NCBI RefSeq assembly: GCF_003334255.1
Contig: NZ_QOWU01000060.1
Reading direction: 5' to 3' (one strand)
Length of the DNA stretch: 31,035 bases
DNA from: Escherichia coli
GTDB taxonomy: Bacteria > Pseudomonadota > Gammaproteobacteria > Enterobacterales > Enterobacteriaceae
This document shows, piece by piece, positions 7,788 to 7,973 of the stretch. Each line of letters starts with the position of its first letter. Positions within the stretch are counted from its first letter, which is position 1. Position numbers and translations under genes: made by a program. The notes beneath the pieces are model-generated. The model made no database searches, had not been told where the DNA came from, and saw only the letters and a list, made by a program, of their open reading frames with translations.

Positions 7788-7973
7788 AAGTTATCCTTAC
7801 AATGTGTTTATCGCTTGCTAAGCATCGAGTGCGACGGAAATGCCAGAATAGCACTCTCCTGCATACACGCACCGATAGCCACTTTTTTTCGCCCCCCAAA
7901 TGTAGACCAGACGGGGGGCGAAAGGGAAGACTCCAGGTACGACAAATCAGGCGTTAAATCACGTTTTCTGGTC

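What the first reader, a model, noticed from the sequence alone, without database searches (positions are those of the whole stretch)
7883..7920. GC-clamp hairpin with a 5' T-run between yjaG and hupA that is not a terminator on either strand
TTTTTTT-CGCCCCCC-(15-nt loop AAATGTAGACCAGAC)-GGGGGGCG is an 8-bp all-G/C stem. On the plus strand the U-run precedes the stem; on the minus strand, which carries yjaG and hupA, the stem is followed by A7. It sits about 55 bp after the yjaG stop and about 100 bp before the hupA ATG. It may be an RNA processing or stability element at the 5' end of the hupA message, or a protein-binding structure.
Basis: seen in the sequence. Interest (0 to 1): 0.35.

Follow-up and report, generated by a model that had tools for sequence, protein, structure and literature searches.

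The report
Inverted repeat spanning the hupA promoter
The "hairpin" between yjaG and hupA is real, but it is a DNA inverted repeat lying across the E. coli hupA promoter, already described in 1994 as a possible cruciform for HU self-repression, and not an RNA element of the hupA message.

Summary
There is a perfect 11-bp inverted repeat, TTTCGCCCCCC/GGGGGGCGAAA (window 7887-7897 and 7913-7923), with a 15-nt spacer. It is the only inverted repeat in this intergenic region, it folds far better than shuffles, and it is single-copy in E. coli.

It is not a terminator: neither strand has a 3' U-run, and published Term-seq shows no 3' end there. The RNA reading also fails. The mapped hupA start site lies 105 nt before the ATG (window 7892, minus strand), inside the 3' arm. 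So the repeat spans -31 to +6 of the promoter:
- 5' arm: the C-run of an 18-bp spacer.
- "Loop": holds the -10 hexamer TACATT.
- 3' arm: the G-rich discriminator and +1.
- A7: +4 to +10.

Across 52 distinct Enterobacterales sequences the loop is essentially invariant. The arms vary without systematic compensation, and only 10 of 52 keep the 8 G/C pairs.

A promoter-overlapping inverted repeat proposed to form an HU-promoted cruciform that represses hupA was published by Kohno et al. (1994). I know that paper only second-hand. Verdict: already known, low interest. Whether the cruciform operates in vivo remains open.

The parts
7913..7923 (-). 5' arm of the inverted repeat (minus-strand TTTCGCCCCCC). 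It occupies promoter positions -31 to -21, the upstream part of the 18-bp spacer.
   Evidence: position relative to the start site
7898..7912 (-). 15-nt 'loop' (minus-strand GTCTGGTCTACATTT), promoter positions -20 to -6. 14 of 15 positions are invariant among 58 distinct Enterobacteriaceae sequences.
7899..7904 (-). -10 hexamer TACATT (-12 to -7) of hupAp1. It lies within the -10 box TCTACATTTG listed by Mendoza-Vargas 2009.
   Evidence: supplement file 3; invariant
7887..7897 (-). 3' arm (minus-strand GGGGGGCGAAA), promoter positions -5 to +6. It forms the G-rich discriminator, the start site and the first transcribed bases.
7892..7892 (-). hupAp1 transcription start site (G). It lies 105 nt upstream of the ATG, at MG1655 NC_000913.3 position 4200176.
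   Evidence: 5' RACE agreeing with Kohno 1990 and Claret 1996; coordinate conversion
7883..7889 (-). A7 tract (T7 on the + strand), +4 to +10 of the hupA transcript. Its first three A pair with the TTT of the 5' arm.
7923..7928 (-). -35 hexamer TTCCCT, with an 18-bp spacer. It is weak in E. coli and reads TTCACA in Kluyvera-type Enterobacteriaceae sequences and in Dickeya, Erwinia, Pantoea, Pectobacterium, Rahnella and Serratia.
   Evidence: -35 box GTCTTCCCT
7788..7892 (-). 105-nt hupA 5' UTR, very highly conserved.
7515..7787 (-). hupA coding sequence (HU-alpha).
7974..8564 (-). yjaG coding sequence (DUF416), the upstream gene.
7466..7487 (-). The real intrinsic terminator of hupA (9-bp stem, 4-nt loop, then a T-run).
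   Evidence: Term-seq 3' end at 4200605

Best explanation
The hairpin is a DNA-level inverted repeat laid across the hupA core promoter, with its dyad at about -13 and spanning -31 to +6.

Shown here: the mapped start site lies in the 3' arm, the -10 hexamer TACATT lies in the 'loop', the 5' arm is the C-run of an 18-bp spacer just downstream of the -35 hexamer, and the A7 is the initial transcribed sequence.

Taken from the literature, second-hand: this promoter-overlapping repeat is the element that Kohno et al. (1994) proposed for HU autoregulation. On negatively supercoiled DNA, HU favours extrusion of the repeat as a cruciform. That places the -10 element in single-stranded loops, separates it from the -35 element, and sterically blocks RNA polymerase. 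More HU therefore gives less hupA transcription.

My inference: the strong sequence conservation is due mainly to promoter elements (the -10 hexamer, the discriminator, +1 and the 5' UTR). The cruciform switch, if it operates, is a feature of Escherichia and a few close relatives where the repeat is perfect.

Confidence is split. About 0.95 that it is the promoter and acts as DNA rather than as an RNA element. About 0.45 that cruciform extrusion is the operative mechanism in vivo.
For: - Start site at -105 by 5' RACE, agreeing with S1 and primer-extension studies, with -35 box GTCTTCCCT and -10 box TCTACATTTG.
- The -35 hexamer improves to TTCACA at the same 18-bp spacing in other genera.
- It is the only inverted repeat in the region, so it must be the 'large inverted repeat' that PMC3969353 says overlaps the hupA promoter and forms an HU-facilitated cruciform, citing Kohno 1994.
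- hupA is reported as activated by DNA relaxation, unlike hupB (PMC8301835). That is what a supercoil-driven cruciform block predicts.
- The repeat is perfect and fixed in E. coli.
- The spacer C-run is better conserved than the bases flanking it.
- There is one compensatory C-G to A-T change in Rahnella and 'Hafnia'.
- No terminator features and no Term-seq 3' end.
Against: Against the cruciform step only:
- Pairing is not conserved. 80.2% of cells are paired against 79.5% in shuffles. Pair 37-57 is broken in 17 of 52 sequences. Only 10 of 52 distinct sequences keep all 8 G/C pairs and only 4 of 52 keep all 11.
- Salmonella keeps 6 of 8 core pairs. The Raoultella/Klebsiella-type sequences (K. 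pneumoniae carries the same 3'-arm G-to-A change) carry a central C x A mismatch. Predicted DNA hairpin energy falls from -14 kcal/mol to between -2 and -6 kcal/mol.
- The conservation pattern is the reverse of a structural element: loop 99.8%, 3' arm 92.7%, 5' arm 80.4%, equal to the 80.5% background.
- A rough energy balance gives a cost of about +27 kcal/mol to convert the 37-bp duplex into two hairpins. About 25 kcal/mol is released at sigma -0.06 and about 12 kcal/mol at -0.03. Extrusion would therefore need protein help.
- I could not read Kohno 1994 itself.
Confidence: 0.6

Rival explanations
1. The palindromy is incidental. The two arms are conserved, where they are, as promoter sequence: a G-rich discriminator and +1 region, and a C-rich 18-bp spacer. 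These set open-complex kinetics and the response to supercoiling. HU feedback then works through constrained supercoiling or general occupancy, and no cruciform ever forms in vivo.
For: The loop and 3' arm are far more conserved than the 5' arm. Mismatches are frequent and uncompensated, including in Salmonella and Klebsiella. The energy balance is unfavourable with a 15-nt spacer. The conserved block continues without a break into the 5' UTR.
Against: The published model and experiments of Kohno 1994, as summarised in PMC3969353. Activation of hupA by relaxation, which from my own knowledge is not what a G/C-rich discriminator usually gives. The C-run in a spacer is unusually conserved. There is one compensatory pair change.
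Confidence: 0.35
2. It is an RNA hairpin acting in transcripts. It would act either as a 5' stability or processing element of hupA mRNA, or in yjaG read-through RNA as a 3' protective hairpin or a U-less terminator.
For: The RNA hairpin is very stable on the minus strand (-24.4 kcal/mol, z = -3.5). It would be present in any yjaG transcript that reads through.
Against: The hupA start site lies inside the 3' arm, so hupA mRNA lacks the hairpin. There is no Term-seq 3' end in 4200100-4200199, and yjaG does not appear at all in the tables of Adams 2021 (3' ends and Rho-termination data). There is no U-run, no Rfam match and no covariation, and the loop is invariant while the arms drift.
Confidence: 0.03
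3. It is an operator for a dimeric sequence-specific regulator that recognises the two G/C-rich half-sites.
For: A perfect palindrome overlapping the -10 is a classic repressor geometry.
Against: The half-site centres are 26 bp apart, about 2.5 helical turns, so they lie on opposite faces of the helix. The half-sites drift independently. The literature I could reach names no such regulator; it mentions only Fis activation and HU autoregulation of hupA.
Confidence: 0.02

Closest known systems
hupA promoter inverted repeat and HU-induced cruciform (Kohno et al. 1994, J Biochem 115:1113; start site from Kohno et al. 1990, J Mol Biol 213:27)
   Same: Same gene and same organism. An inverted repeat overlaps the promoter. 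It is the only inverted repeat in this intergenic region, and the mapped start site and promoter boxes fall inside it.
   Different: Nothing demonstrably different; I take it to be the same element. The identity is inferred, because the 1994 paper was not readable here. New here is the comparative result that pairing is not maintained across Enterobacterales.
Intrinsic (Rho-independent) terminator
   Same: A G/C-rich stem next to a run of T/A.
   Different: The T-run is 5' of the stem on the + strand and reads as A7 on the gene strand. The loop is 15 nt. No RNA 3' end is mapped there. The genuine hupA terminator is at 7487..7466.
Supercoiling- or stringent-type promoters with G/C-rich discriminators (for example rrn P1 and fis P; from my own knowledge)
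   Same: A G/C-rich block lies between the -10 hexamer and +1, and the gene is growth-phase regulated.
   Different: hupA is reported as relaxation-activated, the opposite of fis. I found no data on ppGpp control of hupA.
REP/BIME extragenic palindromes
   Same: An intergenic G/C-rich palindrome in E. coli.
   Different: It is single-copy, with a median of one place per genome. It matches no repeat family or Rfam model, and it overlaps a promoter.

Membership tests
Intrinsic terminator | U-rich tract immediately 3' of the stem on the transcribed strand | tested here: not met
   The minus strand has A7 after the stem and the plus strand has AAAGGGAAG. The scan reports no terminator here.
Intrinsic terminator | Short loop (about 3-8 nt) | tested here: not met
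   The loop is 15 nt.
Intrinsic terminator | RNA 3' end mapped at the site | tested here: not met
   The Term-seq tables of Adams 2021 hold no 3' end at 4200100-4200199. The ends nearby are at 4200251/253, 4200389 and 4200605.
Sigma-70 (and sigma-S) promoter | Experimentally mapped primary start site | tested here: met
   A start at -105 by 5' RACE equals the previously known start, per Mendoza-Vargas 2009. This is literature data, not re-measured here.
Sigma-70 (and sigma-S) promoter | -10 hexamer 5-8 nt upstream of +1, with A at position 2 and T at position 6 | tested here: met
   TACATT at -12 to -7, invariant in 52 distinct sequences.
Sigma-70 (and sigma-S) promoter | -35 hexamer at 16-18 bp spacing | tested here: met
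   TTCCCT (3 of 6) at 18 bp in E. coli and TTCACA (5 of 6) at the same place in many genera. The strict consensus scan did not call it in E. coli.
Cruciform-forming regulatory inverted repeat (Kohno 1994 model) | Perfect or near-perfect inverted repeat overlapping the promoter | tested here: met
   An 11-bp perfect repeat spanning -31 to +6.
Cruciform-forming regulatory inverted repeat (Kohno 1994 model) | Extrusion on supercoiled DNA, and dependence of repression on HU and on the repeat | not testable with these tools
   Known only second-hand from PMC3969353. A rough energy estimate is marginal.
Cruciform-forming regulatory inverted repeat (Kohno 1994 model) | Pairing potential maintained in relatives, with compensatory changes | tested here: not met
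   80.2% of cells are paired against 79.5% in shuffles. 10 of 52 sequences keep the 8-bp core. There is one compensatory event against many uncompensated ones.
Structured cis-regulatory RNA (5' UTR element) | The whole structure lies within the transcript | tested here: not met
   The start site is inside the 3' arm.
Structured cis-regulatory RNA (5' UTR element) | Match to a curated family, or covariation support | tested here: not met
   The only Rfam hits are chance-level (E about 5, far below the gathering score). There is no covariation signal.
REP/BIME repeat | Many copies per genome | tested here: not met
   One place per genome, median 1.

The most novel reading that the evidence does not exclude
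The perfect 11-bp repeat may be a lineage-specific refinement, seen in Escherichia and some Citrobacter and Enterobacter-like lineages, of an ancient and otherwise sequence-constrained promoter. It would convert that promoter into a genuine cruciform switch sensing supercoiling and HU. That would explain why hupA, despite a G/C-rich discriminator, is activated by DNA relaxation. The A-T compensation in Rahnella would then be an independent re-gain of pairing. This would be a rare case of a cruciform with a demonstrable regulatory role and a traceable evolutionary origin in bacteria.
Probability: 0.15. Interest if true: 0.45.

Novelty: already known. Interest (0 to 1): 0.15.

Why it matters
The main value is as a correction. 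A stable hairpin with a misplaced T-run turns out to be a core promoter read as if it were RNA, so no new RNA element should be annotated here.

A modest residual interest remains. The hupA promoter is one of the few bacterial promoters for which a cruciform-based feedback has been proposed. The comparative data here show that the pairing is not maintained in Salmonella, Klebsiella and most other genera, while the -10, discriminator and 5' UTR are almost frozen. That sharpens a testable question. Either HU autoregulation is cruciform-dependent and Escherichia-specific, or it is a general property of this promoter's response to supercoiling.

Tried and rejected
- **Rfam:** a search of 7300-8500 at a permissive E-value gave only chance hits.
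- **Pattern scan:** the consensus promoter and terminator scan gave no promoter call and found only the true hupA terminator.
- **Alternative -10:** I first considered an extended -10 promoter, TGCTATTCT at 7845-7853. It matches only a minor 454 start site at -52, and its key A is a T in most genera, so I rejected it as the main promoter.
- **Independent confirmation of the start site:** the held supplements of Ettwiller 2016 and Kim 2012 contain nothing for these coordinates. Thomason 2015 and Kohno 1994 are not held.
- **ppGpp or discriminator control of hupA:** the literature search found nothing relevant. The stringent-control idea therefore stays a recollection, and the reported relaxation-activation partly contradicts it.
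- **A similar repeat at hupB:** none. The only inverted repeat upstream of hupB is the lon terminator.
- **Operator for a dimeric regulator:** rejected on half-site geometry and independent drift of the half-sites.
- **More distant relatives (Vibrio, Pasteurellaceae):** not pursued.

Full report
**1. What is in the sequence**

The window is E. coli: 1.2 kb around the site is 100% identical to K-12 MG1655 and to many other strains. yjaG (8564..7974) and hupA (7787..7515) are on the minus strand. MG1655 (NC_000913.3) coordinate = 4208068 minus window coordinate.

The reported motif is there exactly: T7 7883-7889, CGCCCCCC 7890-7897, a 15-nt loop 7898-7912, and GGGGGGCG 7913-7920. Three further A/T pairs make it a perfect 11-bp inverted repeat, TTTCGCCCCCC/GGGGGGCGAAA (7887-7897 with 7913-7923). 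It is the only inverted repeat in 7700-8050.

As RNA it folds at -25.6 kcal/mol (+ strand) and -24.4 kcal/mol (- strand), z = -4.2 and -3.5, with no shuffle as stable. Perfect repeats of this size are about 40-fold enriched in the window over shuffles, 5 against 0.13.

**2. It is not a terminator and not a known RNA**

- Neither strand has a U-run 3' of the stem, and the loop is 15 nt.
- The pattern scan finds only the genuine hupA terminator at 7487..7466.
- Rfam gives only chance-level hits.
- The Term-seq tables of Adams et al. 2021 (PMC7815308) contain no 3' end anywhere in 4200100-4200199. They do list 4200251/253 (weak, inside the hupA leader), 4200389, and the strong terminator end at 4200605. 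yjaG does not appear in them at all.

**3. Where hupA transcription starts**

Mendoza-Vargas et al. 2009 (PMC2760140) list hupA p1 at -105 from the ATG, both as the known start (Kohno 1990, Claret 1996) and in their own 5' RACE. Their supplement gives the -35 box GTCTTCCCT and the -10 box TCTACATTTG.

-105 is MG1655 4200176, which is window 7892 on the minus strand: the last G of the G-run. The anatomy follows directly:
- -35 hexamer TTCCCT: 7928..7923.
- 18-bp spacer, whose upstream part is the 5' arm (-31 to -21).
- The 'loop' is -20 to -6 and contains the -10 hexamer TACATT (7904..7899).
- The 3' arm is -5 to +6, covering the discriminator TGGGGG, +1 G, and CGAAA.
- The A7 is +4 to +10.

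The dyad lies at -13. hupA mRNA therefore begins GCGAAAAAAAGUGG... It contains only 6 of the 11 nt of the 3' arm (+1 to +6) and none of the loop or the 5' arm, so the hairpin cannot be a 5' element of the hupA message.

The same supplement lists minor starts at -52, -45 and -4. The -52 start uses the TGCTATTCT motif that I first suspected. That motif is not conserved.

**4. Comparative evidence**

I collected 78 Enterobacteriaceae yjaG-hupA intergenic regions. I added Dickeya, Erwinia, Pantoea, Cronobacter, Pectobacterium, Rahnella, Serratia, 'Hafnia' and Lonsdalea.

The intergenic length is almost fixed at 186 nt. From the 5' arm onward the sequence is extraordinarily conserved. In many genera the -35 hexamer reads TTCACA at the same 18-bp spacing, which corroborates the promoter assignment.

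Mean pairwise identity among 58 distinct Enterobacteriaceae sequences:

| Region | Identity |
|---|---|
| Upstream intergenic | 80.5% |
| 5' arm | 80.4% |
| Loop (14 of 15 invariant) | 99.8% |
| 3' arm | 92.7% |
| 5' UTR | 96-99% |

This is the reverse of what a selected stem-loop shows.

I ran a formal pair count on 52 distinct sequences (alignment A1):
- 80.2% of cells are paired, against 79.5% in column shuffles.
- Pair 37-57 is broken in 17 of 52 sequences.
- The outer A/T pairs at columns 28-66 and 30-64 are broken in more than half of the sequences; the middle one (29-65) never breaks.
- Only 5 cells show a double change.

Only 10 of 52 sequences keep all eight G/C pairs and only 4 of 52 keep all eleven. 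Predicted DNA hairpin energy drops from -14 kcal/mol (E. coli) to -4.9 kcal/mol (Salmonella), -5.9 kcal/mol (the Raoultella/Klebsiella-type sequence) and about -2 kcal/mol in some lineages.

One genuine compensation exists. Dickeya, Pectobacterium, Serratia and Lonsdalea have CGCACCC opposite GGGGGGCG (an A x G mismatch). Rahnella and 'Hafnia' have CGCACCC opposite GGGGTGCG, which restores an A-T pair.

Within E. coli the 81-nt promoter segment is identical in 5277 of 5426 complete genomes and is single-copy.

**5. What is already known**

PMC3969353 summarises Kohno et al. 1994 (J Biochem 115:1113). [quoted passage not shown] It says that HU facilitates this by raising negative superhelicity at the promoter. 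It also says that the cruciform sterically hinders the functional promoter domains, giving autorepression.

Because this is the only inverted repeat in the region, I infer that it is that element. I could not read the 1994 paper itself.

A review of supercoiling transcriptomics lists hupA as activated by DNA relaxation, unlike hupB (PMC8301835). That fits a supercoil-driven structural block. Fis is cited as an activator of hupA (PMC9221221). hupB has no comparable promoter-centred repeat; the only inverted repeat upstream of it is the lon terminator.

**6. Mechanism and its uncertainty**

- **Shown:** the repeat is promoter DNA.
- **Literature, second-hand:** HU-promoted cruciform extrusion represses the promoter.
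- **My estimate:** converting the 37-bp duplex (-53.8 kcal/mol) into two hairpins (-12.8 and -13.7 kcal/mol) costs about 27 kcal/mol before any junction penalty. About 25 kcal/mol is released at sigma -0.06 and about 12 kcal/mol at -0.03.

Extrusion is therefore marginal on naked plasmid DNA and would need HU's affinity for four-way junctions in vivo. Taken with the lack of conserved pairing, I give the cruciform step about 0.45. I give the alternative about 0.35: incidental palindromy, with the arms acting as C-rich spacer and G-rich discriminator. I give the RNA and operator readings a few percent together. That the element is the hupA promoter and acts as DNA I hold at about 0.95.

**7. Verdict**

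'Not a terminator' is confirmed. The RNA processing or stability reading is refuted. 'Protein-binding structure' is roughly right.

The element is already in the literature (the start site in 1990, the cruciform model in 1994), so novelty is 'already known' and interest is low. The only new content is comparative. The promoter core and the 5' UTR are nearly frozen across Enterobacterales, while the pairing potential of the arms is not maintained.

Noticed in passing
window 7466-7508 (minus strand): The hupA intrinsic terminator (7487..7466) lies inside the annotated 5' end of yjaH. The strong Term-seq 3' end is at MG1655 4200605, which is window 7463, and the RefSeq yjaH start is 4200566, which is window 7502. 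The first dozen or so annotated yjaH codons are therefore the terminator hairpin. A GTG in the hairpin loop would give MVSPLLSFWRRSLMLAGALLLTAC, which carries a lipobox. Either the yjaH start is mis-set, or yjaH expression depends on read-through of the hupA terminator.
   Followed up: no
window 7788-7886 (minus strand), hupA 5' UTR +7 to +105: The 105-nt hupA leader shows 96-99% mean pairwise identity over 58 distinct Enterobacteriaceae sequences, against about 80% for the yjaG-proximal intergenic part. It consists of two conserved modules, separated by a 125-nt insertion in Dickeya (L082) and an 18-nt insertion in Pectobacterium (L086). Weak Term-seq 3' ends fall at +76 and +78. This suggests post-transcriptional control of hupA that I did not find described.
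   Followed up: partly
window 7905-7912 (minus strand), promoter -20 to -13: The spacer block GTCTGGTC immediately upstream of the -10 hexamer is nearly invariant: CTGGTC is invariant in all 52 distinct sequences, including Dickeya, Erwinia and Pantoea, and the first two bases vary in only three. That is unusual for a promoter spacer. It may reflect a sigma-S-type extended -10 (C at -13) or an unknown bound factor.
   Followed up: no
window 7954-7967 (minus strand), about -75 to -62 of hupAp1: A conserved block, AAAACGTGATTTAA, lies upstream of the -35 region. It contains a CRP-like half-site, CGTGA. It may relate to the regulation of hupA by CRP and Fis studied by Claret and Rouviere-Yaniv 1996 (title recalled from memory; I did not read the paper).
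   Followed up: no
window 7838-7853 (minus strand): Minor start sites at -52 and -45 from the hupA ATG are listed by Mendoza-Vargas 2009; -52 is assigned the TGCTATTCT extended -10-like motif. The key A of that motif is a T in most other genera, so these are probably weak, E. coli-specific or processing-derived 5' ends.
   Followed up: partly
window 6241-6286: A perfect 17-bp inverted repeat, GAGTAAAAATGACTCGC, with a 12-nt spacer lies upstream of zraP. It is presumably the ZraR (HydG) enhancer-binding site of the divergent zraP/zraSR sigma-54 promoters (the assignment is from memory).
   Followed up: no
L092 (MG1655 461150-461800), hupB upstream: The only inverted repeat upstream of hupB is the lon terminator. 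Its 3' arm, GCTTGCCAGCC, lies within the -35 box that Mendoza-Vargas 2009 list for a known hupB start at -118. So hupB has a terminator-embedded promoter, not a promoter-centred repeat like hupA.
   Followed up: partly
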